Source of the DNA: Candidatus Poseidoniaceae archaeon
GTDB lineage: Archaea > Thermoplasmatota > Poseidoniia > Poseidoniales > Poseidoniaceae
Assembly: GCA_943789275.1 (NCBI GenBank)
Contig: CALSTM010000002.1
Coordinates: 210,001-242,000, forward strand
Length of the DNA: 32,000 bases
Direction of reading: 5' to 3'
Positions 5,118-22,988 of the stretch are shown piece after piece. The position numbers were made by a program, and so were the translations under genes. The notes under the pieces were generated by a model. The model was not told where the DNA came from and made no database searches. It saw only the letters and a list, made by a program, of their open reading frames with translations. Each line of letters starts with the position of its first letter. Positions within the stretch are counted from its first letter, which is position 1.

Positions 5118-5122
5118 ATTTT

Positions 5123-5530: not shown

Positions 5531-5539
5531 ATTCTCACC

Positions 5540-6273: not shown

Positions 6274-6277
6274 GGTA

Positions 6278-6535: not shown

Positions 6536-6536
6536 A

Positions 6537-6836: not shown

Positions 6837-6858
6837 TGTTTTCTTCTCCTTGTGGGTT

Positions 6859-7727: not shown

Positions 7728-7738
7728 AATCAATCACC

Positions 7739-8332: not shown

Positions 8333-8342
8333 ACATCACACC

Positions 8343-8840: not shown

Positions 8841-8851
8841 ACATCATCACC

Positions 8852-9568
8852 TCAGATTTTCTTACCGCGACCTCGTCCAGTGCGGCTTGGTGCAATCAGA
8901 CCGACCTTAGCACCTGGAGGGGTGCCACGAGCGACCGAGTTAGGACCGTGAACAGCTTGGTGGTTTCCACCACCGTGCGGGTGGTCCACGGGGTTCATTG
9001 CAACACCGCTGACGTGAGGGAACAACTTACCACGGGCCTTGGCCTTGTAGTAAGCAGCACCTGCAGTTCGCAGTGGCATTTCATCTCGTCCGTGACCTGC
9101 AAGAACACCGATGGTTGCACGGCATTTTGCTGGAAGTTCACGGAGTGATCCAGATGGCATTCGGACTCGAACCTTGTCGCCGATTCGTGCTTCTACGAAA
9201 CACGAGTTACCAGCGGCACGAGCAACCTTGCCACCGTCTCCAGGACGAAGTTCAAGATTGTTGATTGCAGTTCCTTCAGGAATGTTCGCGAGTGAAGTGA
9301 TGTTACCCGGACGGAGTGCAGCATTGTCGCCGATAGCGACGCTTGCTCCGACAGCGAGGCCTTCAGTAGCCACAACAAGTGTGGATTCACCGTCTGGCAA
9401 CTTCATCCGAGCGAGTGGAGCTGAGTGAACTGGGCTGTGTAGCAATTCTGTAATTTCACCAACAACACCTTCAGTGCGAGGCATGCGGTTCGCACCTGGG
9501 AACCGATGGCTTGCAACACGGTATCGTGGAGAGGAACCTTTTCGTTGTGCACGTATTCTCTTACCCAT
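8852..9568 (-). CDS. rpl2: 50S ribosomal protein uL2
   Basis: 238 aa. VSGVAMNPVDHPHGGGNHQ is the uL2 signature. Confidence 0.97.
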   Translation of the reverse strand: MGKRIRAQRKGSSPRYRVASHRFPGANRMPRTEGVVGEITELLHSPVHSAPLARMKLPDGESTLVVATEGLAVGASVAIGDNAALRPGNITSLANIPEGTAINNLELRPGDGGKVARAAGNSCFVEARIGDKVRVRMPSGSLRELPAKCRATIGVLAGHGRDEMPLRTAGAAYYKAKARGKLFPHVSGVAMNPVDHPHGGGNHQAVHGPNSVARGTPPGAKVGLIAPSRTGRGRGKKI

Positions 9569-9579
9569 GATAAATCACC

Positions 9580-9837
9580 TCAGAATGCTCCCAAGCGCAT
9601 TGCTGCGTCTTCTGCGTCGTAACCTTCGGCAAGCTTAACGGAAGCGTGCTTGCCGTGTTTTGAATTTCGTACGTTGACTTTCGCCACTTCGACTTCGAAG
9701 ATGGTTTCAATCGCACGTGCGATTTGACTCTTTGATGCACTGCGGTGGACGATAAATTCGAGGCGTTGCTCAGTAGTACGAGCTTCCATCGATTTTTCGG
9801 TCAACCAAGGCTGAATGATAATGTCGTATGCGTTCAT
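9580..9837 (-). CDS. rpl23: 50S ribosomal protein uL23
   Basis: ATG 9837 (MNAYDIIIQPWLTEKSM...) follows GAGGTGA and lies after the rpl4 stop (9848). The track start at 9870 would overlap rpl4. Confidence 0.9.
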   Translation of the reverse strand: MNAYDIIIQPWLTEKSMEARTTEQRLEFIVHRSASKSQIARAIETIFEVEVAKVNVRNSKHGKHASVKLAEGYDAEDAAMRLGAF

Positions 9838-9847
9838 GATGTTCACC

Positions 9848-10729
9848 TCAGTTAAGTGCCTCCACAGCATCTTTGGTAAAGACGGTCAAACGACCGATGT
9901 CGCCACCAGGCGCCAAATCTTCGGCGCACAGGTCACGGGCTGCAACCACATCGACACCAGGAAGGTTTCGAGCGGCTTGTGCCAATCCAGACTTCTCCTT
10001 AACGACAAGAAGTACGGACTTTGGAGTCTTGTGGACACGCCCACGCATGGTAGCCTTGCCCGCACGAATCTTTCGACCGTCACGAGCACGCATCAAGTCA
10101 TCTCCAAGACCAATTTGGTTGAAGATGGCGAGAACCTTTCGAGTAGCGGAACCGTGGTTGAACGATTCAATGTTGAATTCTTCGCTCTTTCCATCTCGGA
10201 CTTCAGTGTAGTTACCAAGAACGATCGGAAGGTGAGAAATTTCTTCAGAGAAACGGTGGCCTCGGGAACTGACTGTTTCGACTGATGTCGTTGCAGTCAA
10301 TGCCGAGTTACGTGCAAGACGGCGTTCTTTCAAGTTGAGTTTTCGTCCCCAGTTCTTTTCGACCTTAGGCCCGTGTGCTCGGCGTCCACCAAGTGTGTGC
10401 GGGTTTTGTGCACCACGGCTTTGACCTGTACGGCGCATAATTCGAGATACACCTCTTCCCTTCCCCCACCATTCGACGGAGTGCTTCATACCGGCCATTG
10501 GCGCACGCTTTCCAACGTGAGCTCGAGAACCGTATGCTTGGCGTCGGTTTGCACGGCTTGATGCCACTGCTAACTTGATGAGATCAGTACGTAGTTCGGT
10601 TGAGAAAGCATCAGAAAGAGTGACTTTCTTTCCATTTTCAACAGAGATTTCAAAGTTTTCCTGGAGTCGACCAGCGTCTACTTCGTCTTGGCTGACTGTG
10701 TTGGTAATATCGATGACGTTTACTTTCAA
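9848..10729 (-). CDS. rpl4: 50S ribosomal protein uL4
   Basis: 293 aa. MKVNVIDITN...SRANRRQAYGSRAHVGKRAPMAGMKHSVEWWGKGRGVSRIMRRTG is uL4-like. The start codon read from the sequence is TTG (10729..10727), 2 nt after the rpl3 stop; there is no nearby ATG. Confidence 0.9.
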   Translation of the reverse strand: MKVNVIDITNTVSQDEVDAGRLQENFEISVENGKKVTLSDAFSTELRTDLIKLAVASSRANRRQAYGSRAHVGKRAPMAGMKHSVEWWGKGRGVSRIMRRTGQSRGAQNPHTLGGRRAHGPKVEKNWGRKLNLKERRLARNSALTATTSVETVSSRGHRFSEEISHLPIVLGNYTEVRDGKSEEFNIESFNHGSATRKVLAIFNQIGLGDDLMRARDGRKIRAGKATMRGRVHKTPKSVLLVVKEKSGLAQAARNLPGVDVVAARDLCAEDLAPGGDIGRLTVFTKDAVEALN

Positions 10730-10731
10730 CT

Positions 10732-11751
10732 TCAGACCCCCTGCTTGGATGATGTACTCACGTACGTGATTTCGTATGGGTGCAATGTCTTGTCGGAACC
10801 ACGAGTCGCATCACGGAATCGGATGAGGCGCTTTGCAGGTCCTGGGACACTTCCCTTAACCAGAATGTAATCGGAATTGACTTCGCCGTAGTGAAGGAAA
10901 CCACCAGATGGAGTGATTGCGTGGTCTTCAGGAGACGCGACGCGAAGAATACGCTTGTTGTATTCTGTGCGTTGGTGGTAACCGGTTTGACCACCTTGAC
11001 GGATGGACTTTCGGACGTATCCGTCACCGAATGCACCCATGTTACCGTGTTGTCGGCGTTTCTTTGAGTTCTTGTGAGATTGCAACTTACCACCGAATCG
11101 CTTGATGACACCTTGCCATCCGTATCCTTTGGTCACTGCGACGATATCGGTGAGATTGCCTTCTTCGAAAGCATCTGCAAATGAATATTCTTCACCCATC
11201 TTCTCCTTAGCGTAAGCAAGCTTTTCTCCGATGTTGCCACCGTCAAGTCCAATTTCCATAACATCGGGTGTCTTGGAAGAAAGGCTTGAGACAGAGGATG
11301 GTTGAGTTGCAGCAATCAATCGAACTTCAACAAGGTCTGCCTTCATGAGGTTTTCAAAGTGCTTCTCTGCATCGTGTTCCTTGCGCTCAGGTAGGCGCTT
11401 GAACAAGTCAGGGAATGCTTCAGAGATTTGGGCTGCGTCAGCCCATGCTTCACCAGCGGCTTGCTTGCCGTATGGAGTCATTGTATATCCACGGACGCCA
11501 AGAATTCGCATTTTAGGGCATTCTACCACTGTAACTGGGACACGTACTTCTTGTCCAGCAGATGGGCTTCGTGGGTTTAGGTCTCGAGCGAGAATATGAG
11601 TCATACCAGCTTTCCAGCCAGCAAATCCTTGCATTCTCACTTCACTTGCATCGGTTGTAGGCCACGACTTTACTAGACCAAATGGACGGTTTGCTCGCTT
11701 TCGCGGGCTGAACGCCATCGATCCTCTTCGTGGGTGACTTTTCTTTGCCAT
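10732..11751 (-). CDS. rpl3: 50S ribosomal protein uL3
   Basis: 339 aa. HPRRGSMAFSPRKRA...FAGWKAGMTH...VTKGYGWQGVIKRFG is uL3-like. AGGAGGA SD sits 6 nt upstream of ATG 11751. First gene of the cluster. Confidence 0.95.
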   Translation of the reverse strand: MAKKSHPRRGSMAFSPRKRANRPFGLVKSWPTTDASEVRMQGFAGWKAGMTHILARDLNPRSPSAGQEVRVPVTVVECPKMRILGVRGYTMTPYGKQAAGEAWADAAQISEAFPDLFKRLPERKEHDAEKHFENLMKADLVEVRLIAATQPSSVSSLSSKTPDVMEIGLDGGNIGEKLAYAKEKMGEEYSFADAFEEGNLTDIVAVTKGYGWQGVIKRFGGKLQSHKNSKKRRQHGNMGAFGDGYVRKSIRQGGQTGYHQRTEYNKRILRVASPEDHAITPSGGFLHYGEVNSDYILVKGSVPGPAKRLIRFRDATRGSDKTLHPYEITYVSTSSKQGV

Positions 11752-11990: not shown

Positions 11991-12126
11991 TGATGTATTT
12001 TTGTTCTGTCAATCATGAAAAAGTCCCCGGTAAAGAAGTCTTCTTCCAACCAACACGGCATTTCAATTCACTTTCACAAGCAGACCCCACACTATCCTTT
12101 TGAACCCTCGACCCAAAAGTAGGGTC

Positions 12127-14796
12127 ATGGCAGTGGTGGTGCATCCTTTTCTCAAAGAGGGCGTACAAGCTCGAGCCTACCAAATGATGGTGCTGCGAAA
12201 CACTCTAGCAGCATCTACGCTCATGGTCATGCCAACAGGTTTTGGAAAAACCGCTGTTGAGTGGATGGCTATGGCTGAAGCTCTTCGACTGAACGTTGGA
12301 AAGATTCTACTTCTCGCTCCAACCACAGGACTTGTCGAACAACAGCAACGGATGGCCCAGGAAATGCTTCAGTTGGACGAAAAACTCATCGTCAGTTATA
12401 CCGGCGAGAATGCTATTGCTCAACGCCCAGCAATCTGGGAGGAGGCAAGCGTGGTTATGGCGACAGCCCAAGTGATTCGAAACGATGCTGCAAATGAACG
12501 CATTGACTTATCTGAAGTTGGCTTGCTTATCGTCGACGAAGCACACCACGGGACCGGTAATCACGCTTATGCCCAAGTTGGTAACATGTACCGTAAGGCA
12601 TGCGAAGGCCATACGGCACCGAAGATACTTGGCGCTACAGCCAGTCCAGGCACCACAGAAAGTAGTATACTGGAGGTGGTAAAAAACTACGACTTTGATT
12701 ATCTCGAGGTCTCTCGCAAAGAGGACGCTATGCTTCAACCGTATGCAGTGGAAATGAATACTGTCCCTCATAGATTACCACTACCAGAGGAACTTTACCT
12801 TTTGATGCGCCCATTGCAAGACCATTTCGACTTAGAAGCAAAACATCTCCAAGACATGGGGTTCCTTTCTCCAACATCATACATCTCCGGGAAAATGATC
12901 AACGAAGCACAGCGAAGGGCGAGTCAAGCCATCCAGAAACGAGATGTTCGCGGCTACGATGCTGCCCGACGCATAGGTGACTTGCGAAGACTCCATATTC
13001 TTCTTGACTTGATTCAAACTCAAGGTCTTAAGGCAGCAGTATCGTTTCTAGATCGAGCAGAGGAAGACGGGCGAAGCGGGGAGAGAACAACCAACCGATT
13101 TGTAGCGAAACCTGCTGTCCACCAGTTTAGAATTGCCACAAAGGATGTGCAAGAGTATCATCCGAAACCAGGTTATGTTCGCGAGTTAGTAAAGAAACAA
13201 CTCCAACAACACCCCAACAGTAAGATCATTGTTTTCACAGAATATCGAGATACTGTCGAAAATCTTGTCTCCATTTTGGAATCTATAGAAGGGGCTAAAC
13301 CGGACCGTTTTATTGGCCAGTCTGGTAAAGGTAAACGGAAAGGAATGACGCAAAAGCAACAACTAGGACAACTGCAACGTTTCCGTGATGGAGACATGAA
13401 TATTCTCGTTGCTACATCGGTGGGTGAAGAAGGATTGGATGTACCGGCTGCAGAACTGGTCATTCTCTACGAACCTGTGGCCAGCGCAATTCGTACCATA
13501 CAACGCAGAGGGAGAACAGCTCGTCAGCAAGCAGGAACGGTTCACACGCTGATTGCAGAACAAACGCGAGATGAATTTGTCAACAGCGCAGCCGGAAAGC
13601 GAGAGGAAAGGATGTACCGCTTGTTAAAACGAATACGCAAACGAGGATTTATTCCCTCAAGGCCACCTGCCTCTGATGCTGTTTTCGAAGCCTTTCGTAT
13701 TCGTATTGATGAGGATTTAATCTCGGTGCCCACTTTCATTGAAGTGGAAAAGAAAAGAATAGAAGCCTTACTTCCAGCGCCTAAACCGATTCAATCTGAA
13801 GAAAAGAAGACGTCGAAGAAAGAAAGAGGCATACCCGTTATTGCTCCTTCAGATCGGAGGCATAGCCACCAAATGGGGCTTGAACAATTTGCATCCAACC
13901 CCTCGCCTAAGCCGAGTAAAGTTGAGAACAACAAGCCATCGATGCGTACGGTTTGGCCCGAACCAATACTGGACGGTGAAGCGCATCGCCATCAAGAGAA
14001 CCTCGCATCTGCGGCAGCATCTGCAATTGCCTCAGAAATGAACGATGTGGAGAAACAAGACATCAGCATCACTCTTGACCATCGAGAGGCTTCCTCAACA
14101 CTCGGAGCCTATTTGAGGAGCAGGGGGGCAACAGTCCACTTCAGTCATCTAAACGAAGGTGACATTCGAATTTCCGAGCGTATACTCATCGAGAGAAAAA
14201 CTGCACGAGACCTTGTTAATTCTCTAACTGACGGTCGATTGCTCAGTCAGTGCCGACGTTTGATTGCTTCATCCTCACGGCCGATGTTGCTTATCGAAGT
14301 TGGCGAAGTTCACGGGCAATTTGTCCATCCCAATGCAGTCCATGGAGCGCTGGCTCACGTGAGTCTGGATTTAGGGATTCCAGTAATGATGACCAAAAAT
14401 CCTGAAGAAACTGCCCATTTCATCATCGCAGCAGCAAAAAGAGAGCACGATATGATCGAGAAGATGGCTGCTCTCGCCCAAGGCCGAACTCAAAGCCATG
14501 AAGATGAAAGAAGTATTGAGAGAGCAATTTCTGCTGCGCTTTCTGAAATCAAAGCCATCGAACTGGACAATGAAATACCAACACCGCTTGCTGGGAGATG
14601 GACTGAACATCAAAGAAAAGTATCCGTGGATGTTCTTTCGGCCATACCGGGAATTGGGGCGAAAAAGGCGGAATCAATGGTGGATGCATTCAGCACACTC
14701 TCTGGTGTTTTTTCAGCATCCGTTGAAGAATTAAGCAGATGTGAACACGTCGGTTCAGCAAGTGCATTGAGAGTGTTTGAAACACTGCATGAGTGA
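12127..14796 (+). CDS. hef: Hef: helicase-associated ERCC4/XPF-family structure-specific endonuclease
   Basis: SF2 helicase motifs MPTGFGKT, IVDEAHH, ILVATSVGEEGLDVPAAELVILYEP and QRRGRTAR. A long low-complexity linker follows. ERCC4 nuclease signature LDHREA ... GDIRISERILIERKTARDL (GDxnERKx3D). C-terminal (HhH)2: LSAIPGIGAKKAESMV...VGSASALRVFETL. The track start at 12100 is TTG; the first ATG is 12127 (MAVVVHPFLKEG...). Confidence 0.9.
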   Translation: MAVVVHPFLKEGVQARAYQMMVLRNTLAASTLMVMPTGFGKTAVEWMAMAEALRLNVGKILLLAPTTGLVEQQQRMAQEMLQLDEKLIVSYTGENAIAQRPAIWEEASVVMATAQVIRNDAANERIDLSEVGLLIVDEAHHGTGNHAYAQVGNMYRKACEGHTAPKILGATASPGTTESSILEVVKNYDFDYLEVSRKEDAMLQPYAVEMNTVPHRLPLPEELYLLMRPLQDHFDLEAKHLQDMGFLSPTSYISGKMINEAQRRASQAIQKRDVRGYDAARRIGDLRRLHILLDLIQTQGLKAAVSFLDRAEEDGRSGERTTNRFVAKPAVHQFRIATKDVQEYHPKPGYVRELVKKQLQQHPNSKIIVFTEYRDTVENLVSILESIEGAKPDRFIGQSGKGKRKGMTQKQQLGQLQRFRDGDMNILVATSVGEEGLDVPAAELVILYEPVASAIRTIQRRGRTARQQAGTVHTLIAEQTRDEFVNSAAGKREERMYRLLKRIRKRGFIPSRPPASDAVFEAFRIRIDEDLISVPTFIEVEKKRIEALLPAPKPIQSEEKKTSKKERGIPVIAPSDRRHSHQMGLEQFASNPSPKPSKVENNKPSMRTVWPEPILDGEAHRHQENLASAAASAIASEMNDVEKQDISITLDHREASSTLGAYLRSRGATVHFSHLNEGDIRISERILIERKTARDLVNSLTDGRLLSQCRRLIASSSRPMLLIEVGEVHGQFVHPNAVHGALAHVSLDLGIPVMMTKNPEETAHFIIAAAKREHDMIEKMAALAQGRTQSHEDERSIERAISAALSEIKAIELDNEIPTPLAGRWTEHQRKVSVDVLSAIPGIGAKKAESMVDAFSTLSGVFSASVEELSRCEHVGSASALRVFETLHE

Positions 14797-15657
14797 TTAG
14801 CCGCCGATGACCAGTGCACGTGTTCGAAGTTGTGCGAACCGGTCAGGGTAGTGGCCTAAAGCAAAGGCAACCATCTCAGCAAGGTGAAGAATAGGCATTG
14901 TGGTGTCTTTACGAGCAATTTTACCTGCTTTGGATTGATAAGAATCGAGGTTTGCATGGGAGATGGTGCATGCCGAGACAATGAGGTCTGCACCGCTTGA
15001 TTTAGCGTCGGAAAGAACGGCCGCAGTCATTCGCATTACCGGTTTATTGATGGTCAGCAACGAAGGCGCACCTACGCTTTGACATTTCAGGTCGTATTCG
15101 ACTGGTGTACCGCCAAGAGCCGTGATGAGTTGTTCCATGTAGGTTGGCATGAATGGGTCATCATCACCACAGGCTCCACTGCGTTGCATGCTTGAGCCGT
15201 AATATGCGGCTACATTCAACCGAAGAGGATTAATGACTGCATCTCGAACTTTTTCCAATCCGATTTCTTCGACCAAGAAATGCAGTAGATGACGAGATTG
15301 AGATTCACCGTTGTATTCGATGCCTGATGTACGGGCCACGATGTTGTTGACATGGTTTGCAAAACTGCGGTCTTCCTTGAACTCGTCAATTGTGTCGCAC
15401 ATGATGCCATGGCTGGTCGCACAGGTTGTCAGAACATCAAGGCCTTTGGATTCTGCAAGAGCGAGGTTGCGTGCAACCAATGCGTGCTGAAGCTTCGGTG
15501 AGGATTGCTTGATGATATTGCCACCGTCACTGCTTGCTTTGGGTATTTCAGTTAATTGAATGCCGAGAGTCTTGCACAGTGGTTGAATGCAATCTTCAAC
15601 TTCAGAAGACGCTGCACGAGCAGCATTACCGGGATAATATGCGATTTTCACAGCCAT
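14797..15657 (-). CDS. HdrB / SdhE(SdhC) / TfrB-C-like protein with two degenerate CCG domains (cluster cysteines mostly lost)
   Basis: 286 aa, collinear with remembered HdrB: KIAYYPGN.., KASSDGGN, LDVLTTCATSHG, LNVAAYYGSS, VEYDLKCQSVGAP, DLIVSACTISHANLD, MPILHLAEMVAFALG. GAGGTGGA SD; 9 nt downstream of the preceding gene. The stop codon abuts the convergent hef stop with zero spacer. Confidence 0.8.
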   Translation of the reverse strand: MAVKIAYYPGNAARAASSEVEDCIQPLCKTLGIQLTEIPKASSDGGNIIKQSSPKLQHALVARNLALAESKGLDVLTTCATSHGIMCDTIDEFKEDRSFANHVNNIVARTSGIEYNGESQSRHLLHFLVEEIGLEKVRDAVINPLRLNVAAYYGSSMQRSGACGDDDPFMPTYMEQLITALGGTPVEYDLKCQSVGAPSLLTINKPVMRMTAAVLSDAKSSGADLIVSACTISHANLDSYQSKAGKIARKDTTMPILHLAEMVAFALGHYPDRFAQLRTRALVIGG

Positions 15658-15666
15658 AATTCCACC

Positions 15667-17634
15667 TCAGAACCTCTGGTCAATTTCATTGAATAGGCTG
15701 ACAACTTCATGGTGTGCGACAACCTTGCTGTTGATCATGTTCGGGATTTTACCGATTCCGGCAGGTGGTGCAAGAAGTGCTTGTAGACTGCGGAATGGAG
15801 GGGCTCCAGTACGAGTAAAACCAAGGAACATTCGGGCAGATACACCATCGAAGATGTTGCTCAAGAGACCAACTGGCCCGAGAACCTGACGGTAAAGTGT
15901 GGTTTCATTGACGTTCCCACTCCATTTCACACTGCGGCCGTACCACTTGACAAGTCGGCCGTGGGGTCCCGAATAGTTGGTAGAGTTCAATAATTTACCA
16001 CGAGCAGTGTTGAGCGCCTTAGAGGCAGTACGGCCGTCAGAGCCGTACCGAGCAACGGATGTGAAATCTGTTTCAGCCCAAACACCGTGCTCACTACCAA
16101 TGGATGCCATCAAGGCATCTCGCTGAGACTCACCGGTTCGTGGGTCGACACATCGATTCCATTGTTGCAACAAAATGCCGGGACCCATGTAATCGGAATC
16201 GTAAGCGAATGTGTCTGACATCGATTGAAGCAGTTGGAAAGAGACAACGTCTCCCATTGCGTGGAGAGTTAACGCAGTTGCAGCCTCCATGGTACCCATT
16301 GCGCTGCCGTTGAGGAGGGTGTGACCGTCACGTGGGTCCGCCTTCATCCATGGTTCACTGGCTGAGCGAGAGGATTCGTACGATGAATAATCAACAACAA
16401 GGTCTCGAACAACAGGATAACCTGGAAGAGGTTCTACTTTGAGAACGCCACCTTCGTTAACCAAGTCACTGATTTGAACAAGGTCGGCCAAAACAGTACG
16501 GCCGTTAACTCGGACCCCCGAAGTCGGAGAACCGTTGCTGTTGCCTCTGCGGAAGGCGAGACTGCCATCGACATCTTGCTGAACAGCGAGGAGAAGGTCC
16601 TCGACGGTTGCATGGCCAGGGACTGCACAAGCAATTGTATCCCATCCGGAGTCTGCCGCTTCGGGGCAGTATCGGAATAAAGAGAGGGTGATTGAAAGAT
16701 CTTCTTGTACAATCACGCCAGGTGTGAAATCGCCTTCAACGGCTTCCTCACCAGAGCCTGAACCGTAGGCAATCATCTCATCGAGAAGTACTTCTTGTAA
16801 AGTTCCTGATTCATCAACACAAGCAATCATTGGTAGTGCTTCAGCAACCCATTGACCCCAAGGCGTATCAAAGTCAACGTCGCACAATTGAGTCGTATGA
16901 ACTTTGTTTGCACCGAGTTCGACATACTTCTCATCCCAGTCCGTTCCAGCTTTACAAAACTCATCGTAAGAGGAATCTCCAATGGCACAGATACTGAATG
17001 AAACGCCTGAAAGAGATGGTGCCTGGGCACTCACTGATTGCCAAAGCGATTCGGCGTTATCCGGCATTTCTCCTTCGCCCCAAGTTGACGTGATGATGAG
17101 AGTACGCTTGTGTTGAGCGAGCGAAGCTGGGTCAAATCCGTCCATGTCATAGACGGTAGGGACCAGTCCGTAGTTGGCTGCAAGTTTTGCAGTCTTCTCT
17201 GCAAGTCCAGCAGCGTTGCCTGTTTGGGAACCGAAAAGAATGGCAAGAGAGCGGTCCCCTCCACCAAGAAGGGCTTGGAGTTCATCGCTACCGCCAGTGG
17301 CAACAGCGACGGCCGCAGCAGGTGCTGCTGCTACCTCGGCTGCAGGTGCAACTTCTGCTACTGTTTCCACAGCACCATCAGTTTGCAGTTCGAATTTGAT
17401 AATCTCAACAGGACAAGCCTCTGCAGCCTCGAGAATCATTTCACCGTAATCGGTGCCTGTTGAGCCTGCCATAGCGGCACCGCCAACGTTGCGGTCAAGA
17501 ACCCCATCCATGCGAACGGCGGCTAAAATCTTCGACGTGTCATCAGAAACAATGAACACTTCAGGACAGATGTCCTGACAAGCGTCACATGTGATGCAAT
17601 CTTCTTCAATCCACACCTTTGCTACGATGGTCAT
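15667..17634 (-). CDS. fusion protein: single-cluster ferredoxin + flavodoxin-like FMN domain + cysteine-less SdhB/FrdB-like domain + unknown C-terminal region
   Basis: The track start at 17649 is GTG. ATG 17634 follows GAGGGTGA (MTIVAKVWIEEDCITCDACQDICPEVF...EACPVEII). Flavodoxin motifs: AILFGSQTGNAAGLAEK, LIITSTWGEGEMPDNA, FSICAIGDSSYDEF. SdhB-like motifs: LFRYCPE, LAFRRGNSNGSPTSGVRVNGRTVLAD, VEPLPGYPVVRDLVVDY, YMGPGILLQQWNRCVDPR. Confidence 0.8.
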   Translation of the reverse strand: MTIVAKVWIEEDCITCDACQDICPEVFIVSDDTSKILAAVRMDGVLDRNVGGAAMAGSTGTDYGEMILEAAEACPVEIIKFELQTDGAVETVAEVAPAAEVAAAPAAAVAVATGGSDELQALLGGGDRSLAILFGSQTGNAAGLAEKTAKLAANYGLVPTVYDMDGFDPASLAQHKRTLIITSTWGEGEMPDNAESLWQSVSAQAPSLSGVSFSICAIGDSSYDEFCKAGTDWDEKYVELGANKVHTTQLCDVDFDTPWGQWVAEALPMIACVDESGTLQEVLLDEMIAYGSGSGEEAVEGDFTPGVIVQEDLSITLSLFRYCPEAADSGWDTIACAVPGHATVEDLLLAVQQDVDGSLAFRRGNSNGSPTSGVRVNGRTVLADLVQISDLVNEGGVLKVEPLPGYPVVRDLVVDYSSYESSRSASEPWMKADPRDGHTLLNGSAMGTMEAATALTLHAMGDVVSFQLLQSMSDTFAYDSDYMGPGILLQQWNRCVDPRTGESQRDALMASIGSEHGVWAETDFTSVARYGSDGRTASKALNTARGKLLNSTNYSGPHGRLVKWYGRSVKWSGNVNETTLYRQVLGPVGLLSNIFDGVSARMFLGFTRTGAPPFRSLQALLAPPAGIGKIPNMINSKVVAHHEVVSLFNEIDQRF

Positions 17635-17736
17635 GCTTGTCACCCTCACTTACGTGTCGTAAGCAATTATTCCCACCATGGAGGGGCCTTTCAAGGTTCG
17701 CTTTTATCCCCATCAAAGAAGGCCTTCAATTTCGAG

Positions 17737-17753
17737 AAAAATAGTCTTAAAAA
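17737..17753 (-). terminator. two oligo-T tracts downstream of the thermosome gene (possible archaeal terminator, may double as an A/T-rich promoter element for the next operon)
   Basis: The minus strand reads ...CAGTTTTTAAGACTATTTTTCTC..., beginning ~25 nt after the thermosome stop. Archaeal termination commonly uses T5+ runs. Confidence 0.35.
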
Positions 17754-17778
17754 CTGTACTCATTGCAATGGGGGAACT

Positions 17779-19401
17779 TCACATTTGGAAGTCGCCCATG
17801 CCACCCATTCCACCGTCCATAGGGACGCCCTTGGAAGAGATGACATCGTCGATTCGAAGAATCATGATTGCGGTTTCAGTTGCGGATTGAATGGCCTGCT
17901 CAACAACGCGCATTGGCTCGACAACGTTCGCCTGCTTCATGTCGACTACGCCACCTTCGTAGACGTTGATACCGGCGTGCGATTGCCCGTCAGCGTGCGC
18001 CTTACGCAGTTCAATGAGGGTAGTCACGGGATCCAGTCCGGCGTTTTCAGCAAGTGTTCTTGGAATAATTTCGAGTGCCGAAGCAAAGGCTTCAATGGCC
18101 ATTTGTTCGCGGCCACCAACGGTCTCGGCATAGGTGCGAAGGTCACGTGAAAGTGCTGCAAGAACACTGCCACCACCGGTCAAAACTGCACCGTCTTCCC
18201 AAGCAACAGAAACAACTCCAACTGCATCATCAAAAGCACGTCGAATTTCATCGACGACGTGTTCGGTTCCACCACGAAGAAGAACGGAAACTGATTTTGC
18301 TTCAGGGCATCCGGTAATGAAGGTCATGTCCGATTCACCAATCTTGCGCTCCTCAACTTTAGCAGCATGTCCAAGGTCATCATCCGAAAGGTCATCGATG
18401 TTTGTGACAATTCGACCTGCGGTTGCCTTTGAAAGTGCTTCCATATCCGATTTCTTGGCACGGCGAATGGCAAAGATTCCAGCCTTCGACATGTAATGCT
18501 GAGCCAACTCATCAATACCTTTCTGACAGATAAGAACAGTTGCGCCAGAGGCTTGAATTTTCTCGACAAGTCCACGGATGTAATTTTCCTCTTCTTCGAG
18601 GAAAAGAGCAAGTTGGTTGGGATCTGTAATCTGGATTTTAGCATCGACTTCAGTTTTCTTAACTTCAATTGCTGAGTTAATCAGAGCAATTTTAGCATTT
18701 GAAATAGAGCGAGGCATTCCTGCGTGAACTCTTTCCTTATCCAAAAGGATTCCATCAATGAGTGTTGAATCCTTGATTGAGCCACCTTGTCGCTTCTCGA
18801 CCTTAATATCTGAAAGGTCAACGATTCTCTCTTCGTCTTCGATAATTCCGACGGCGTTCACTGCACGGACGCAAATATCCGCCATGAAACTCTTGACTGC
18901 ACCGGCGGACTTGCCAGTAAGAGCCGTTTTTGCAACTTCCATCAATACTGAATCTTGGTTTTCGGTTGAGATACCATGAGCTTCAAGCAATTCAACAGCC
19001 TTCTCTGCTGCGAGTCGGAAGCCTTCGCAAATGACGGTTGGATGAACATTCTGTTCGATGAGGTCTTCACTGCGCTTGAGGAGTTCCCCGGACAGGACGA
19101 CGGCAGATGTGGTCCCGTCGTAACAATGCTGCTCTTGGGTCTTAGCGACTTCAATAATCATCTTGGCCGCAGGATGGTCGATATCCATTTCCTTGAGAAT
19201 TGTTGCGCCATCGTTGGTAATGACGACATCACCCATCGAGTCAACCAGCATTTTGTCCATGCCCTTCGGTCCGAGTGTTGAGCGAACGGCGTCGGCGACA
19301 GCCTTGGCAGCTGCTATGTTGTTTGATTGAGCGGTTCGACCGCGAGTTCGTTGTGTTCCATCCTTCAAAATGAAGATAGGTGCTTGTCCGTTTCCATACA
19401 T
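17779..19401 (-). CDS. ths: thermosome subunit (group II chaperonin)
   Basis: 540 aa. [61 protein letters not shown] and the C-terminal [11 protein letters not shown] tail. AGGAG SD. Confidence 0.96.
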
Positions 19402-19472: not shown

Positions 19473-22400
19473 TTAAGCCTGTCCATTTTGTTCAAGCCAC
19501 ATTTGACCGTAGACATTCCACTGTTCCATGGTCCATCCATCAGGCAAACCTGCTGCTGGAACCGGCGGAGCAGTATCCGCAGTGCTCAAGTTTGGAGATG
19601 GAGCGGAAGGTGCCTGAACGATAGGTGCTGCTGCTGGAGGTGCTCCGGCGGGTGGAGCGATGGATGGAAGTGACTTCGGAACTTCGTATGCAGCGCCAGC
19701 GACTGGAACGGTTGGTGCGGCTGCTACAGCGCCGTAGGTTGCTTCAACACTACCTTCGTAGCCTTCTTCACCCCAGCCACCGTAATCATCTTCTTCTTCC
19801 TCTTCAGTAAGGATTCGGAAGATAACCCCTACACCGATGACAAATACCACGATGAAGCCAATCCAAGTTAGTATTGAGCCCATGTCGATGCCACTGGAAT
19901 CTCCGCCAGTACCGTCGGTGGAAAGATCTGAACCGGTTTTGACCAATTGAAGTTGTAAAGTGGTGCTTGCCGCGTCACTGACTGTTTGAGATTCTGCCCA
20001 TAGAGTAAGGTTGGTGAACAGAGAATCACTACCCAAATTGTTGAGAGTTGTGGATGAAACGGTGAAGATGACAGTGACTTGGCGTTCCTCCTCGACTGCC
20101 AATGAGAACGTTCGGTCGCCGTTGGCAAGCTTTGATTGAACCCAATTCGAAGATTCACCACTGTCAAGATTCATAGAGACCGATTGTGCAGTCGTGTATT
20201 GATTTCGGACGGTGACGGTCATCGACCATGCATCAACGGGTTCTGCCTCGTCAATAACCAGCATTTCTGTTGGAATGATTTTCAACCAGTTCTGAGAGCC
20301 GACCAAGTAGGTTGCTGAGCCGGACGAACTGATACTTGCGTCGTTGACGCTCGTTGCAATGATGTTAAGCAGCAACTGCCCTTCTGTACCGTCCACGAAG
20401 GAGAAGCGAACCGAAACGTTGTAACTGCTACCGGTTGGGATTTCAGGAGTCATGCCATCAAAGAGGTTTGTGAACTCTACGTTCATCCCCGCAGGGGCGT
20501 TGGAAGTCATTGTGAACCTGTCAACGCTGTTTCCATCGTTGAACACTTCAAACTGCATAGTTTGGGCAGCTTGTCCCGGAATGTAGGATTGGTCTGCATC
20601 TTCGTCTGAAACACGAACAGCAGCAGTATCGAGAATGTCGACGGTGAGGCTGATTGAGGATTTAACTGTAGGATCATCAACGCTGGTTGCTGTCACAGTA
20701 AGGCTGTACAGTTGCGGAGCCAATCCAATCGGCATAGGAAGATTGAGTTGAATAATCGATGAACCATCCCAAGCGTCCATGACCGCAGTTTGGCTGCTTG
20801 CCAAGTTTGCACCAAGTTGCCAGTTCTGTTGAGTCAAAGAGAGATCGTATTGCTCATCATCGTTACCGATGTTGTAAATGCTGATGTAAACCTTCTTCGA
20901 CACGCCATTCGCTGGGCCAGAGATATCTGTAGTGTCCGTTTCCAGAGAGACTTGGCGTAGAACTGGGACTTCGATGTTACGAGAAAGGACATCGTTACCG
21001 AATAAAGCGCCGCATGAAGGACAGGTTGCCCGAAGAGTGAAAGAAACCGTTCCAGGATTCGCTTGAGTTGCGGCAGTAATGTTGAGTTGCAAGTTGATGC
21101 TCTGCCCACGGCCAACATAAACTGGATTCGAGACGGATGCACCTGTGTCGTTCACAAGCAGCGCAGACCAATCATCCTCGGAGAAAGTGGTAGCGAGGTT
21201 GAATGAAGCATCTCGGTTTCCAGAGTTTTGCAAACGGAACGGAACCATGCCAGATTGGCCTGGTCCGAACGAGCCGGCTTGAAGACCAACGGTCGATGTG
21301 AGAGAGACACCAAATTGTTCGGTAACCCCTACAGAAGCGGAAAGTCTTGCTTTCTCACCCGAGTTCTGTCCCGAGGCATCCGTAAACCAAAGTTGCCAGA
21401 TGAGTTGCTGGACATCTGCGCCTGGGGGAATGGTAAGGTTGACCCATAGGTCAACAGAACCGCCACCAGGAATTGGAGGGATGAGAATGCTGGTGTCGTG
21501 ATCACCAACCAAAGTCGAGTAACCTGCACCGTTAATGTACACTGCATCTTGGCGAATCATTGGATTGGCAGGGTCCATCCATGTCAAATTGGAAATGTTT
21601 GATTCCGAGCGTATTGCAGCAGGAGCGTATCCGTTGTTGGTGACCGTACAATACAAGCTCAAAAGGTCACTTGGTGGTGCAGAATAGCCGTTTTCAGGAG
21701 CATCGCAACTCACGTCTAAGGTGTATTCTTGCACCTTACGAACACCAAATTGAATCCAGTCGTCCACGTGGAATCCTTCTGTCGCATCGCTGCTGTCGCT
21801 TCGAAGAACCATGCCCATTGAGTACGAGTTGCCGCCAAGGAATACATTTTGGTTGGTCACATATGGGTTTTGCAAGTAAGTCACTTGAGGGTCCCAACTG
21901 ATACGAGTCCATTGGTCAGGTGCTTGGCTTGGGTTGCCTTGGGAGATGTCATAGACAATGGATTCGTTGATGTTTTGCCCACCGGAACCACGCCACATCT
22001 CAATCGAGACGCTGTCGCCAGATGCCACACTGCCCCATGCTTGGATATGAATTTGGGAAGAGATATAGTTCGATGCATAGAAGACGTTTCGACAAATCCA
22101 TGTGCCGTACACCTGAGACATTCCGGCGTCGAGTTGCCCATTTGCACCGCAGTTGTTTCCGTTCGTTGAAATGAAGGAATTGACCAGGCGGTCGTGTGCA
22201 TTGGAAGGATAGTTGTTGCCTGCTTCAGCATTGCCCCAATGCTTTGAGCCAACGGCTCCACCCGAAAGGTCAGCCCAAGAACCATCCCCGTTTGCATTTC
22301 CACCATCGACCGGATAACGAGCAGGGATGAACGTCGAAGATTGAGTGGTTGTTCCATCAAACGAATCCTTCATGATGGCGATTGGTACCGTCTTTTCCAA

Positions 22401-22901
22401 CATGTCGTTTTCGTTACGGTCGTCACCGTTCGAATCTTTGTCAAGCATGGCCCGCAAGATGAGTCCTCCGGAAAGGTCGTTGGTGGTCGTATCGAGTACG
22501 GAGTGTGCTGCTGTCGGTGTCCAAAGGAAGGTTTTCGAGTCACTTTGACCACCGATAAGCAGTCCTGAAGTCCACGTGAATGTTTCCATGACGTATCCAA
22601 TGGGATGAATGATCTGAATCATAGCGACGCTGTCTTTACCGGTGAAAGAATTACCTCCACGTTGAATTTCCATACCAACTTCAATGGTGTCACCCTCAAA
22701 CATGTACTCAACAATTGTACCGTTTGATTGAGTCCACTCTTGGGCAGGTACGCTTGCGTTTCCAAGAGAAATGGAAACCACACGGAAATCATCGTTCGCT
22801 CCGCCACGGCCAGCAGTTGCACTGGCAGGAGCAGCCATTCCCATGGCAAGGGTTTGGAGCAACAATAGGGCAACAAGGGTCAACGGAGTGATACGACGCA
22901 T
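19473..22901 (-). CDS. very large secreted surface protein with C-terminal transmembrane anchor and 111-aa cytoplasmic tail
   Basis: ATG 22901 (MRRITPLTLVALLLLQTLAMGMAAPASA, signal-peptide-like) follows GGAGGT. The body contains several ~100-aa segments with the V..L...N.GN....F.L pattern of CARDB/NEW3-type beta-sandwich repeats; this is a motif impression, not an HMM result. TM segment ILTWIGFIVVFVIGVGVIFRIL, then an acidic and Ala/Pro-rich tail. Confidence 0.8.
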   Translation of the reverse strand: MRRITPLTLVALLLLQTLAMGMAAPASATAGRGGANDDFRVVSISLGNASVPAQEWTQSNGTIVEYMFEGDTIEVGMEIQRGGNSFTGKDSVAMIQIIHPIGYVMETFTWTSGLLIGGQSDSKTFLWTPTAAHSVLDTTTNDLSGGLILRAMLDKDSNGDDRNENDMLEKTVPIAIMKDSFDGTTTQSSTFIPARYPVDGGNANGDGSWADLSGGAVGSKHWGNAEAGNNYPSNAHDRLVNSFISTNGNNCGANGQLDAGMSQVYGTWICRNVFYASNYISSQIHIQAWGSVASGDSVSIEMWRGSGGQNINESIVYDISQGNPSQAPDQWTRISWDPQVTYLQNPYVTNQNVFLGGNSYSMGMVLRSDSSDATEGFHVDDWIQFGVRKVQEYTLDVSCDAPENGYSAPPSDLLSLYCTVTNNGYAPAAIRSESNISNLTWMDPANPMIRQDAVYINGAGYSTLVGDHDTSILIPPIPGGGSVDLWVNLTIPPGADVQQLIWQLWFTDASGQNSGEKARLSASVGVTEQFGVSLTSTVGLQAGSFGPGQSGMVPFRLQNSGNRDASFNLATTFSEDDWSALLVNDTGASVSNPVYVGRGQSINLQLNITAATQANPGTVSFTLRATCPSCGALFGNDVLSRNIEVPVLRQVSLETDTTDISGPANGVSKKVYISIYNIGNDDEQYDLSLTQQNWQLGANLASSQTAVMDAWDGSSIIQLNLPMPIGLAPQLYSLTVTATSVDDPTVKSSISLTVDILDTAAVRVSDEDADQSYIPGQAAQTMQFEVFNDGNSVDRFTMTSNAPAGMNVEFTNLFDGMTPEIPTGSSYNVSVRFSFVDGTEGQLLLNIIATSVNDASISSSGSATYLVGSQNWLKIIPTEMLVIDEAEPVDAWSMTVTVRNQYTTAQSVSMNLDSGESSNWVQSKLANGDRTFSLAVEEERQVTVIFTVSSTTLNNLGSDSLFTNLTLWAESQTVSDAASTTLQLQLVKTGSDLSTDGTGGDSSGIDMGSILTWIGFIVVFVIGVGVIFRILTEEEEEDDYGGWGEEGYEGSVEATYGAVAAAPTVPVAGAAYEVPKSLPSIAPPAGAPPAAAPIVQAPSAPSPNLSTADTAPPVPAAGLPDGWTMEQWNVYGQMWLEQNGQA

Positions 22902-22988
22902 AAGACCAACGAAACCTCCGAGATTCACGCGGCATATAGAGATGGCCATTTGATGACCAGACAGAGGTCACGAGGATTTACTTCAAAT

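What the first reader, a model, noticed from the sequence alone, without database searches (positions are those of the whole stretch)
14797..17634. Two-gene module: SdhB-like and HdrB/SdhE-like partners that both lost their Fe-S ligands, capped by intact ferredoxin and flavodoxin domains
Seen:
- Two same-strand ORFs are separated by 9 nt (upstream stop 15667-15669, GAGGTGGA, downstream ATG 15657), so they are very likely co-transcribed.
- The upstream product reads, N to C, as a single-cluster ferredoxin (CITCDACQDICPEVF...EACPVEII), an Ala/Pro/Val linker, and a flavodoxin-like FMN domain (AILFGSQTGNAAG..., LIITSTWGEGEMPDNA, FSICAIGDSSYDEF).
- A ~230-aa region collinear with the succinate dehydrogenase/fumarate reductase Fe-S subunit follows, then ~120 aa of unknown sequence.
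- The downstream product is collinear with HdrB, the CCG-domain subunit (SdhC/SdhE) of archaeal type-E succinate dehydrogenases.

Established: SdhB-like plus HdrB-like is exactly the domain pair of thiol:fumarate reductase TfrB and of type-E SDH. In those enzymes the two parts form a chain of Fe-S clusters.

Inference:
- Both partners here have lost nearly all cluster cysteines in parallel, while keeping non-ligand framework motifs and long uninterrupted ORFs. That argues for a repurposed (pseudo-enzyme or scaffold) pair rather than decaying pseudogenes.
- The only plausible redox centres left are the newly fused [4Fe-4S]/[3Fe-4S] ferredoxin and the FMN domain.
- No SdhA/TfrA flavoprotein gene is adjacent; the neighbours are the thermosome and the convergent hef.
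- I do not know of a described system with this architecture.
Basis: partly seen in the sequence, partly recalled or inferred. Interest (0 to 1): 0.82.

Follow-up and report, generated by a model that had tools for sequence, protein, structure and literature searches.

The report
Cluster-less SdhB/HdrB pair with fused carriers
Marine Group II archaea all carry an expressed two-gene module that descends from the iron-sulfur subunits of succinate dehydrogenase and heterodisulfide reductase but has lost those iron-sulfur clusters and gained fused ferredoxin and flavodoxin domains; its function is unknown, and genome annotations mislabel it as cysJ, sdhC or hdrB.

Summary
Protein A (15667-17634, minus strand, 655 aa) is ferredoxin + linker + CysJ-type flavodoxin + SdhB-like body with 0 of 12 cluster cysteines. 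Its "unknown" tail is partly the C-terminal arm of long (type-E/TfrB-like) SdhBs. Protein B (14797-15657, 286 aa) has the HdrB fold (TM 0.86) but keeps only 2 of 10 ligand cysteines.

The pair is not decaying. It occurs in 197 species genomes, always between the thermosome and Hef genes, with tight gene spacing and dN far below dS, and it is transcribed in situ. A canonical sdhA-sdhB lies elsewhere in an annotated MGII genome, so this is an extra module, not complex II.

New findings:
- Sister lineages form a graded series. B's C-terminal site is always remodelled (invariant Cys230-x-x-Ser-His), while its N-terminal cluster motif keeps 5, 2 or 1 of 5 cysteines.
- A's N-terminus varies: Fdx, Fdx-Fdx, Fdx-Fld or Fld-Fld. 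Some versions should therefore contain no iron.

The most likely role is an electron-transfer module whose tethered carriers serve B's remodelled cleft. The chemistry is unresolved. I found no published functional description.

The parts
15667..17634 (-). Gene A, 655 aa: Fdx - linker - Fld - cluster-less SdhB-like body - C-terminal arm. Orthologue of MG2_0753; labelled 'cysJ K00380' in KEGG-based annotation.
17380..17634 (-). Single-cluster ferredoxin domain (aa 1-85). Likely ligands are Cys13, Cys16, Cys19 and Cys74-Pro; Cys23 varies and is not a ligand.
   Evidence: Fer4_13 34.9 bits. C13/C16/C19 are present in 35 of 35 Fdx-bearing members, C74 in 45 of 45, C23 in 23 of 45.
17251..17379 (-). 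Ala/Pro/Val/Glu-rich flexible linker (aa 86-128); the least constrained segment together with link 2.
   Evidence: Sequence; dN 0.05-0.30; pLDDT below 50.
16810..17250 (-). CysJ/MioC-type flavodoxin (FMN) domain (aa 129-275). Invariant FMN loops GSQTGN (135-140), TSTWGEG (182-188) and CAIGD..Y (216-223).
   Evidence: Flavodoxin_1 96.2 bits; TIGR01931 cysJ 2.9e-35; invariant columns; the only confidently modelled part of A, pLDDT 75-88.
16375..16704 (-). SdhB N-terminal (2Fe-2S, Fer2_3) domain homologue (aa 311-420) with none of the 4 ligand cysteines.
   Evidence: Fer2_3 44 bits; alignment to cysteine-bearing SdhBs; E. coli SdhB 2wp9_B alignment.
16030..16374 (-). SdhB C-terminal (two-cluster helical) domain homologue (aa 421-535) with none of the 8 ligand cysteines; the fastest-evolving folded part.
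   Evidence: dN up to 0.37.
15670..16029 (-). C-terminal arm (aa 536-655), the most constrained part of A. Motif G.HGR.VKW(Y/F)..SVK.SG.(L/V)NET.L..Q.LGP is shared with long SdhBs; the insert RM.LGFTRTG.PP.R..Q and the tail GK.P...N....H.EV..(L/I)FNE.D.RF are family-specific.
   Evidence: dN 0.013-0.087.
15658..15666 (-). 9-nt spacer with a GGTGGA Shine-Dalgarno-like element between the A stop and the B start; A and B share a reading frame.
   Evidence: The spacer is 6-11 nt in 78 of 79 loci, and the genes abut or overlap in divergent lineages.
14797..15657 (-). Gene B, 286 aa: HdrB/SdhE-fold protein with both CCG motifs degenerate. Orthologue of MG2_0754; labelled 'sdhC K00241' or 'hdrB' in automatic annotation.
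15421..15423 (-). Codon of Cys79, the only surviving ligand position of the N-terminal CCG motif (first Cys of CxxC).
   Evidence: 225 of 227 family representatives.
14956..14970 (-). Codons of Cys230-Thr-Ile-Ser233-His234, the remodelled C-terminal CCG site, invariant across the family.
   Evidence: C230 in 227 of 227, S233 in 224, H234 in 226.
17635..17778 (-). Intergenic region between the thermosome stop and the A start. It has T-runs just after the thermosome stop, an A/T-rich box (AATAATT) about 35 nt upstream of the ATG, and GGTGA before the start. Presumed own promoter and RBS (inference only).
   Evidence: Sequence; not tested.

Best explanation
A and B form a two-subunit complex specific to Poseidoniales (Marine Group II). 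It descends from a type-E-SDH/TfrB-like SdhB + SdhE(HdrB) module. The SdhB-like body of A has lost all three Fe-S clusters in every lineage. Together with its highly conserved C-terminal arm, it now serves as a cluster-free structural adaptor clamped onto B (inferred).

Electron transfer is instead carried by carrier domains fused to A's N-terminus through flexible linkers: a [4Fe-4S] ferredoxin and/or a CysJ-type FMN domain. These domains are interchangeable across lineages (Fdx, Fdx-Fdx, Fdx-Fld, Fld-Fld).

I propose that these carriers shuttle electrons between a soluble donor and the remodelled HdrB-type cleft of B. Candidate donors are 2-oxoacid:ferredoxin oxidoreductase or an NAD(P)H-dependent FNR/CysJ-like FAD module. 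The family-wide invariant feature of B's cleft is the C-terminal site Cys230-x-x-Ser233-His234, together with S194-V195-G196, D238 and Y240-Q241.

In sister lineages the opposing N-terminal site still has a full five-cysteine noncubane-cluster motif. That gives a 'one cluster + one conserved cysteine' layout like the thiol/(tri)sulfide reductase DsrK. In the window's clade that cluster has been replaced by Asn11, Ser43, Asp44, Cys79 and Ser82, so the only redox cofactors left are one [4Fe-4S] and one FMN. The Fld-Fld variants should have no iron at all.

Shown: homology, ligand loss, the graded series, conservation, synteny, expression. Inferred: A-B complex formation, carrier shuttling, B's cleft as the working site, thiol-based or quinone-directed chemistry, and iron economy as the selective driver.
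For: - Homology and ligand loss.
- The arm is homologous to the extension of long SdhBs and is the most constrained part of A.
- B is under very strong constraint (dN/dS 0.008-0.06).
- C230, S233, H234, S194-V195-G196, D238, Y240 and Q241 are invariant in about 227 representatives, and C79 is present in 225 of 227 even where the cluster is gone.
- Graded series of the N-site, 5/5, 2/5 and 1/5 Cys.
- Variable carrier modules.
- A-B adjacency with 6-11 nt spacers or overlaps in all lineages.
- Present in 197 species genomes. KEGG 'cysJ', the label this gene receives, is called in 99-100% of MGII genomes.
- Transcribed in situ at thermosome-like levels.
- FMN and Fdx motifs intact.
- DsrK, HmcF and TmcB provide a precedent for a single CCG cluster plus a conserved cysteine (PMC10861901).
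- KorAB and a stand-alone CysJ-like FAD/NADPH protein exist in an MGII MAG.
Against: - No direct evidence for the A-B interaction. The full-length A model was poor (pLDDT 50.5, arm below 50) and no multimer prediction was possible.
- Invariant positions in B are only about 2-fold enriched near former ligand columns (Fisher p = 0.07), so a functional cleft is not statistically established.
- The conserved gene neighbours are housekeeping genes (thermosome, Hef, ribosomal operon) and give no functional clue.
- Fld presence does not track cluster loss in B: the 5/5 lineages include Fdx-Fld forms.
- Stand-alone ferredoxins exist in MGII, so the tethered carriers are not uniquely required.
- No substrate can be named.
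Confidence: 0.4

Rival explanations
1. Redox-inert docking scaffold. The cluster-less SdhB-like body, arm and B have no catalytic site of their own. They only anchor the tethered Fdx/FMN carriers to a partner (an SdhA-like flavoprotein, the NuoEFG-less complex I, or the membrane surface), making A/B an electron-input or output adaptor.
For: - All relay clusters are gone.
- The most constrained parts are the arm and B, as expected for interfaces.
- Enrichment of invariant residues at former ligand sites is not significant.
- In type-E SQR, SdhE is thought to be a monotopic membrane anchor (PMC2754724).
- There are no TM segments, so the complex is at most peripheral.
Against: - A pure scaffold does not readily explain near-absolute invariance of Cys79, Cys230, Ser233 and His234 at former ligand positions.
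- It does not explain why some lineages keep a full catalytic-type noncubane-cluster motif in B.
- No partner gene is ever adjacent in about 90 loci.
Confidence: 0.3
2. Ferredoxin/flavodoxin:quinone oxidoreductase. The module keeps the quinone-reducing role proposed for SdhB-SdhE in type-E SQR, but FMN passes electrons directly to a quinone bound at B's Ser/His/Tyr/Asp-rich remodelled site. This would re-oxidise the ferredoxin reduced by KorAB/PorAB in an aerobe.
For: - Ancestry from the quinone-side module of type-E SQR.
- The invariant S233, H234, D238, Y240 and Q241 are residue types typical of quinone sites (my own knowledge of Q-sites).
- KorAB is present.
- The module is universal and expressed.
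Against: No membrane-binding element was detected. Quinone binding at CCG sites is itself unproven. There is no experimental or contextual support.
Confidence: 0.15
3. B has become a cofactor-independent two-thiol enzyme (racemase, epimerase or isomerase-like), using one cysteine from each pseudo-symmetric half as Asp/Glu racemases do.
For: - Foldseek lists Asp/Glu racemases and arylmalonate decarboxylase after the CCG proteins (E 1e-4 to 1e-2, prob about 1).
- Weak Pfam Asp_Glu_race hit (E 0.029).
- Exactly two invariant cysteines, one per half, in TTC79ATSH and SAC230TISH.
- Resemblance to the racemase motifs ACNTAH and GCTE (recalled from memory, a lead only).
Against: - TM-scores to racemases are low (0.3-0.38).
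- In sister lineages Cys79 is part of an intact CxxC cluster motif, so a two-thiol acid/base pair cannot be the family's ancestral mechanism.
- A racemase would not need fused Fdx/FMN carriers.
Confidence: 0.07
4. A and B are the Fe-S and anchor subunits of the organism's actual complex II, as KEGG-style labels ('sdhC') would imply.
For: B is assigned K00241 sdhC. Tully's pangenome lists a single 'sdhC' cluster and no sdhD.
Against: - An MGII MAG carries canonical sdhA (612 aa, K00239) and sdhB (255 aa, K00240, 2Fe-2S domain hit) at another locus (MG2_1658/1659), preceded by two unannotated small genes that could be the anchors.
- A has no relay clusters.
- No SdhA gene is ever adjacent.
Confidence: 0.03
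5. Decaying pseudogenes or annotation artefacts.
For: Loss of nearly all catalytic ligands.
Against: - Intact ORFs in 74 of 74 (A) and 72 of 72 (B) loci internal to their contigs.
- dN far below dS.
- 197 species genomes.
- Transcripts detected in situ.
- The one apparent A-B fusion is an ambiguous base, and the one split A gene is in a single contig.
Confidence: 0.01

Closest known systems
Type-E succinate:quinone reductase SdhB + SdhE (Sulfolobus/Acidianus; also the MFR of Campylobacter/Wolinella)
   Same: Two-protein pair of a long SdhB with a C-terminal extension and an HdrB-like CCG protein. NCBIfam MFR SdhE hits B at 1.1e-37, and PRK12576/PRK12577/MFR SdhB models hit A. The closest cysteine-bearing relatives of A are long SdhBs with a second CxxCxxCxxxC motif.
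   Different: All 12 SdhB ligands and 8 of 10 CCG ligands are absent. Fdx and FMN domains are fused N-terminally. No sdhA or sdhF is adjacent. The organism has a separate canonical sdhAB.
Thiol:fumarate reductase TfrB (SdhB-like + HdrB-like in one chain)
   Same: Same domain pair in the same order. NF004898 TfrB hits A at 3.2e-9. A and B are in the same frame, 9 nt apart.
   Different: Two polypeptides, no TfrA partner, no clusters, and extra carrier domains. The apparent natural fusion in L050 is an ambiguous base.
HdrB of HdrABC heterodisulfide reductase
   Same: Best sequence and structure match for B: TIGR03288 1.3e-39; 8rvv_B 1e-32; Foldseek TM 0.84-0.87, rmsd 2.6-3.7 A.
   Different: HdrB binds two noncubane [4Fe-4S] clusters through 10 cysteines. 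B in this window keeps 2 of them. No HdrA or HdrC is present; the HdrC role is taken by a cluster-less SdhB-like body.
DsrK / HmcF / TmcB (single-CCG thiol/trisulfide reductase subunits)
   Same: Design principle of one noncubane-cluster motif plus one strictly conserved cysteine left from the lost second motif (PMC10861901). This matches the half-intact B proteins of sister lineages.
   Different: A different cysteine is retained (first Cys of CxxC here, versus the GECGH cysteine in DsrK). There is no DsrM-like cytochrome b partner. In the window's clade even the remaining cluster is gone.
CysJ / diflavin-reductase FMN domain and MioC-type flavodoxins
   Same: A's residues 128-271 match TIGR01931 cysJ at 2.9e-35 and MioC at 5.5e-21, with intact FMN loops.
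   Different: No FAD/NADPH domain is in the same chain. The KEGG label 'cysJ' rests on the FMN domain only (score 11). A separate 425-aa CysJ-like NAD-binding protein exists in an MGII MAG.

Membership tests
SdhB/FrdB iron-sulfur subunit of complex II | Detectable homology over both domains (Fer2_3 plus the two-cluster helical domain) | tested here: met
   Fer2_3 44 bits above its cut-off of 27. NF004616 E 1.5e-20 over residues 314-520, but 73 bits against a cut-off of 228.
SdhB/FrdB iron-sulfur subunit of complex II | Cysteine ligands for [2Fe-2S], [4Fe-4S] and [3Fe-4S]/[4Fe-4S] (11-12 Cys) | tested here: not met
   0 of 12 ligand columns are Cys in the window protein and in 8 divergent family representatives.
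SdhB/FrdB iron-sulfur subunit of complex II | Encoded with, and partnered to, an SdhA/FrdA flavoprotein | tested here: not met
   No SdhA homologue in the window or in 1.43 Mb around 87 related loci. Canonical sdhA-sdhB lie at a different locus in an MGII MAG.
HdrB / SdhE / CCG-domain proteins | HdrB fold (two pseudo-symmetric alpha/beta halves) | tested here: met
   AF2 pLDDT 87.4; Foldseek to 8rwn_B, 8rvu_B and 5odc_B at TM 0.85-0.87.
HdrB / SdhE / CCG-domain proteins | Two CX(n)CCGX(m)CXXC motifs, each ligating a noncubane [4Fe-4S] cluster | tested here: not met
   Window B keeps 1 of 5 Cys in each motif. Family-wide, the C-terminal motif is 1/5 in 227 of 227 and the N-terminal motif is 5/5 in 44, 4/5 in 1, 2/5 in 70 and 1/5 in 112.
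Thiol:fumarate reductase TfrAB | SdhB-like plus HdrB-like domains with full cluster sets and an adjacent TfrA | tested here: not met
   The domain order is shared, but the clusters are absent and there is no TfrA/SdhA nearby.
Flavodoxin / CysJ-type FMN domain | Flavodoxin_1 profile above cut-off with conserved FMN phosphate and ring loops | tested here: met
   96.2 bits against a cut-off of 25. GSQTGN, TSTWGEG and GD..Y are invariant in 45 sequences. FMN binding itself is not testable here.
CysJ (assimilatory sulfite reductase flavoprotein) | FMN domain plus FAD/NADPH domain in one chain; whole-protein score above the equivalog cut-off | tested here: not met
   TIGR01931 scores 122 bits against a cut-off of 668, and only profile positions 59-203 of 597 match.
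Single-cluster [4Fe-4S]/[3Fe-4S] ferredoxin (Fer4_13) | CxxCxxC...CP ligand set and profile above cut-off | tested here: met
   34.9 bits against a cut-off of 24.5. C13, C16 and C19 are present in 35 of 35 Fdx-bearing members and C74 in 45 of 45. Cluster type is not testable here.
DsrK-type single-CCG reductases | One intact CCG motif plus the conserved catalytic cysteine in GECGH; partner DsrM | tested here: not met
   The window B has no intact CCG motif. Sister lineages have one, but a different residual cysteine (AC..SH) and no DsrM-like neighbour.
Asp/Glu racemase superfamily | Racemase fold with two catalytic cysteines; profile match | tested here: inconclusive

The most novel reading that the evidence does not exclude
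The module is a previously unrecognised kind of oxidoreductase in which an Fe-S electron relay (up to about 18 Fe in the SdhB+SdhE ancestor) has been replaced stepwise by tethered flavin and ferredoxin carriers. This goes down to fully iron-free Fld-Fld versions, as an adaptation of the most abundant surface-ocean archaea to iron scarcity. The remodelled two-cysteine cleft of B would carry out thiol/disulfide or quinone chemistry without any cluster. If the acceptor is quinone, it would also supply a missing route for ferredoxin re-oxidation in aerobic archaea that use 2-oxoacid:ferredoxin oxidoreductases.
Probability: 0.2. Interest if true: 0.85.

Novelty: new variant of a known kind. Interest (0 to 1): 0.66.

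Why it matters
Poseidoniales are the most abundant planktonic archaea in surface oceans and remain uncultured.

- **Scale:** this pair is a core, expressed part of their genomes (197 species genomes).
- **Annotation:** it is currently read as 'cysJ', 'sdhC' or 'hdrB' in metabolic reconstructions. Those labels imply sulfite reduction, a complex II anchor or heterodisulfide reduction, and the sequence supports none of them.
- **Enzymology:** for Fe-S enzymologists it is a rare natural series. One orthologous module is caught at several stages of cluster loss (B at 5/5, 2/5 and 1/5; A's carriers from Fdx-Fdx to Fld-Fld). It could be used to ask what an SdhB/HdrB scaffold does without clusters, and whether flavin can replace an Fe-S relay under iron limitation.
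- **Correction:** the real MGII complex II is encoded elsewhere.

Tried and rejected
1. **Does flavodoxin gain track loss of B's last cluster?** Rejected. Lineages with a 5/5 N-site include Fdx-Fld forms. Fld-Fld forms were seen only with cluster-less B, but the numbers are too small for a claim.
2. **Are invariant residues of B enriched near former ligand columns?** Only about 2-fold, Fisher p = 0.07, so inconclusive.
3. **Natural A-B fusion in L050 as interaction evidence?** It is an ambiguous base (TNA) in the stop codon.
4. **Full-length AF2 model of A:** poor (pLDDT 50.5) except for the flavodoxin domain, so there was no fold search of the SdhB-like body or arm.
5. **Organisms of the closest cysteine-bearing SdhB relatives:** the only two that carry an organism name are Nitrospirota MAGs, which says nothing about MGII's own SdhB. 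The canonical SdhB was found through a published MAG annotation instead.
6. **Is A's ferredoxin the only ferredoxin in MGII?** No. Stand-alone 2Fe-2S and 4Fe-4S ferredoxins are annotated.
8. **First alignment for the genome scan:** too divergent; a 5-sequence alignment worked.
9. **Literature searches** for a description of the module found only the synteny remark in PMC6741140 and automatic labels in supplements.
10. **Hydropathy scan:** no transmembrane segment.

Full report
**What is in the sequence**

Two minus-strand ORFs occupy 15667-17634 (A, 655 aa from the ATG; an in-frame GTG lies 15 nt upstream) and 14797-15657 (B, 286 aa). The A stop (TGA, 15669-15667) is followed by GGTGGAATT and the B ATG, a 9-nt spacer, and the two genes share a reading frame.

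Neighbours:
- Downstream is a convergent Hef-type helicase/nuclease (12100-14796, +), followed by the large ribosomal-protein operon (427-11751, -).
- Upstream are the thermosome (17779-19401, -) and a 1158-aa Pfam-less surface protein.
- No SdhA-like gene is in the window.

**Domains**

Pfam gives A a Fer4_13 single-cluster ferredoxin (10-80), Flavodoxin_1 (132-257, 96 bits) and Fer2_3 (317-419).

NCBIfam shows three things:
- The FMN domain is CysJ/MioC-like (TIGR01931, 2.9e-35, FMN part only).
- Residues 311-522 align with SdhB/FrdB models (E 1.5e-20), far below every curated cut-off.
- B matches HdrB (TIGR03288, 1.3e-39) and the SdhE anchor of methylmenaquinol:fumarate reductase (1.1e-37), also well below cut-off.

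**Ligands**

I aligned A and eight divergent family members with the closest cysteine-bearing SdhBs. All 12 ligand columns (4 for [2Fe-2S], then CxxCxxCxxxC twice) are non-cysteine in every family member.

Against solved HdrB (8rvv_B, E 1e-32), B keeps only the first Cys of each CxxC, namely Cys79 and Cys230. The AF2 model of B is confident (pLDDT 87, pTM 0.88) and superimposes on HdrB chains at TM 0.84-0.87.

**The 'unknown' tail**

An exhaustive search of 1.8 billion representatives with A(300-655) found the family (23 representatives at E below 1e-30), then a wide gap, then SdhBs at about 1e-15. The best of these are long (300-330 aa) forms, with alignments running to query position about 300.

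These long SdhBs share the motif G.H.KWF..SVK.SG.LNET.L with A's tail. A profile of the tail alone hits only the collinear C-terminal extension of long cysteine-bearing SdhBs, weakly but consistently (best 26 bits). So the first half of the tail is the type-E/TfrB-like SdhB arm. The insert RM.LGFTRTG.PP.R..Q and the last ~50 residues are family-specific. This arm is the most constrained part of A (dN 0.013-0.087, against 0.05-0.37 for the former cluster domain).

**Not decay**

- A genome scan found the family in 197 species-level genomes. The best 80 are all Poseidoniales, including the MG-II reference chromosome CM001443.
- The order surface protein - thermosome - A - B - Hef(-) - L3 is essentially invariant. 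It holds even in the most divergent members, at 37-39% identity.
- A and B are intact wherever the contig allows, 74 and 72 loci.
- Spacers are 6-11 nt, or the genes overlap.
- dS is saturated while dN stays low: omega is about 0.025-0.06 for A and 0.008-0.06 for B. Both genes are more conserved than Hef.
- In a published MGII MAG the two genes have in-situ transcripts, with A at thermosome-like levels (PMC9723583, supplementary file 4).

**Relation to the real complex II and to existing annotation**

The same table labels A 'cysJ K00380' (score 11; eggNOG 'SDH/FRD iron-sulfur protein', MG2_0753) and B 'hdrB' / 'sdhC K00241' (MG2_0754). It lists a canonical sdhA (612 aa) and sdhB (255 aa, 2Fe-2S domain hit) at another locus (MG2_1658/1659), preceded by two unannotated small genes.

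Tully's pangenome has 'cysJ' in 99-100%, 'sdhB' in about 90% and 'sdhC' in 92-96% of MGII genomes. Pereira et al. noted the conserved helicase - 'SDH cytochrome b' - 'sulfite reductase flavoprotein' - thermosome synteny without analysing it.

So the module is additional to complex II. The labels in circulation are artefacts of partial domain matches. Four literature searches found no functional description.

**New: a graded series**

Across 227 B-family representatives the C-terminal CCG site is always remodelled and nearly invariant: Cys230 in 227 of 227; S194-V195-G196; S233-H234; D238; Y240-Q241. The N-terminal motif occurs in three grades (examples):
- Fully intact (C/CC/CxxC): 44 representatives.
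- 2 of 5 Cys (N, S, C, C, T/S): 70 representatives.
- 1 of 5 Cys (N, S, D, C, S/A): 112 representatives, including the window.
- One further representative keeps 4 of 5.

Cys79 persists in 225 of 227. A's SdhB-like body is cluster-less in all lineages.

A's N-terminus also varies:
- Fdx only (446 aa).
- Fdx-Fdx (583 aa).
- Fdx-Fld (about 650 aa, the majority).
- Fld-Fld (720-755 aa).

Lineages with a 5/5 N-site always carry at least one Fdx domain. Fld-Fld forms were seen only with cluster-less B, but Fdx-Fld occurs in all grades. Cofactor swapping is therefore real, but the correlation is unproven. An Fld-Fld A paired with a 1/5 or 2/5 B should contain no Fe-S cluster at all.

**How it most likely works**

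Shown: a conserved, expressed, tightly co-encoded pair, with intact FMN and [4Fe-4S] ferredoxin motifs on flexible linkers, a cluster-free SdhB-like body with a highly constrained arm, and an HdrB-fold partner.

Inferred:
1. The arm and body clamp onto B, by analogy with SdhB-SdhE, HdrC-HdrB and the TfrB fusion.
2. The tethered carriers replace the lost relay. They shuttle electrons between a soluble donor (KorAB-reduced ferredoxin pool, or NAD(P)H through a stand-alone CysJ-like FAD protein) and B.
3. B's cleft, especially the universally conserved Cys230-x-x-Ser-His site, is the working site.

The half-intact lineages have the 'one noncubane cluster + one conserved cysteine' layout that DsrK, HmcF and TmcB use for thiol/trisulfide reduction (PMC10861901). 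This points to thiol-based chemistry, with Cys79 (plus Cys44 or Asp44) taking over from the cluster in derived clades.

I put about 0.4 on this overall picture. The rivals are a redox-inert docking scaffold (0.3), a ferredoxin/flavodoxin:quinone reductase (0.15) and a racemase-like two-thiol enzyme (0.07). The racemase idea comes from distant Foldseek and Pfam similarity to Asp/Glu racemases. 'Real complex II subunits' and 'pseudogenes' are essentially refuted.

**Limits**

- The A-B interaction, cofactor content and substrate are untested.
- The full-length A model was poor outside the flavodoxin domain.
- Enrichment of invariant residues near former ligand columns was not significant (p = 0.07).
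- The conserved neighbours are housekeeping genes and give no functional hint.
- Neither protein has a predicted transmembrane segment.

**Verdict**

The module is a new, cluster-less variant of the SdhB/SdhE (TfrB-like) module with fused carriers. It is universal in Marine Group II archaea, mislabelled in current annotations, and of unknown function.

Noticed in passing
MGII MAG SIMO Bin 19-2, gene 732 (PMC9723583 supplementary file 4); not in the window: A stand-alone 425-aa protein is labelled 'hmp' / cysJ K00380 (score 102) with an NAD-binding domain (PF00175). It could be the FAD/NADPH half of a split CysJ-like diflavin reductase whose FMN half is the flavodoxin domain of protein A.
   Followed up: no
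window 14797-15657 (B model) against the PDB: After the CCG proteins, the structural neighbours are Asp/Glu racemases and arylmalonate decarboxylase (prob about 1, TM 0.3-0.38). Pfam also gives a weak Asp_Glu_race hit. B's two invariant cysteines sit one per half, as in racemases.
   Followed up: partly
window 2161-2775 (-): Ribosomal protein L32e carries an N-terminal SAP domain (Pfam 1.4e-15), an unusual fusion for a ribosomal protein.
   Followed up: no
window 427-1191, 8343-8840, 9848-10729, 7739-8332 (-): Several ribosomal proteins are longer than their Pfam domains. S5 has an ~84-aa N-terminal extension and S19 a ~70-aa one. L4 and L22 have long insertions relative to their profiles.
   Followed up: no
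window 19473-22949 (-): A 1158-aa protein with no Pfam hit has an N-terminal hydrophobic segment and a C-terminal TM helix followed by an acidic then Ala/Pro-rich tail. It is conserved next to the thermosome in nearly all related loci and is probably a surface (S-layer-like) protein.
   Followed up: partly
window 22989-24320 and 24406-25011 (-): Two ORFs (443 and 201 aa) have no Pfam match.
   Followed up: no
L050:9089-11932: A and B appear as one 948-aa ORF only because the A stop codon contains an ambiguous base (TNA). It is not a real fusion.
   Followed up: yes
L093:404-2601: An Fld-Fld type A gene is split (80 aa + 631 aa) by a frame disruption in one metagenome contig. This is probably an assembly or sequencing error, since the near-identical L092 is intact.
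   Followed up: partly
L057 (NZEQ01000037.1): A contig carrying the typical Poseidoniales thermosome-A-B locus is deposited in a MAG named 'Verrucomicrobiales bacterium'. This is likely binning contamination.
   Followed up: no
L081 (3.0-Mb contig, 69% GC): The most divergent family member (Fdx-only A of 446 aa, with B's N-site 5/5) sits on a 3-Mb, high-GC contig with the same synteny plus an inserted PLD-like gene. This genome is larger and more GC-rich than typical MGII genomes, and its taxonomy was not resolved.
   Followed up: no
MGII MAG SIMO Bin 19-2, genes 286-287 upstream of sdhA/sdhB (PMC9723583 supplementary file 4): Two unannotated genes (191 and 266 aa) directly precede the canonical sdhA-sdhB. 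They may be the true, unrecognised membrane anchors of MGII complex II.
   Followed up: no
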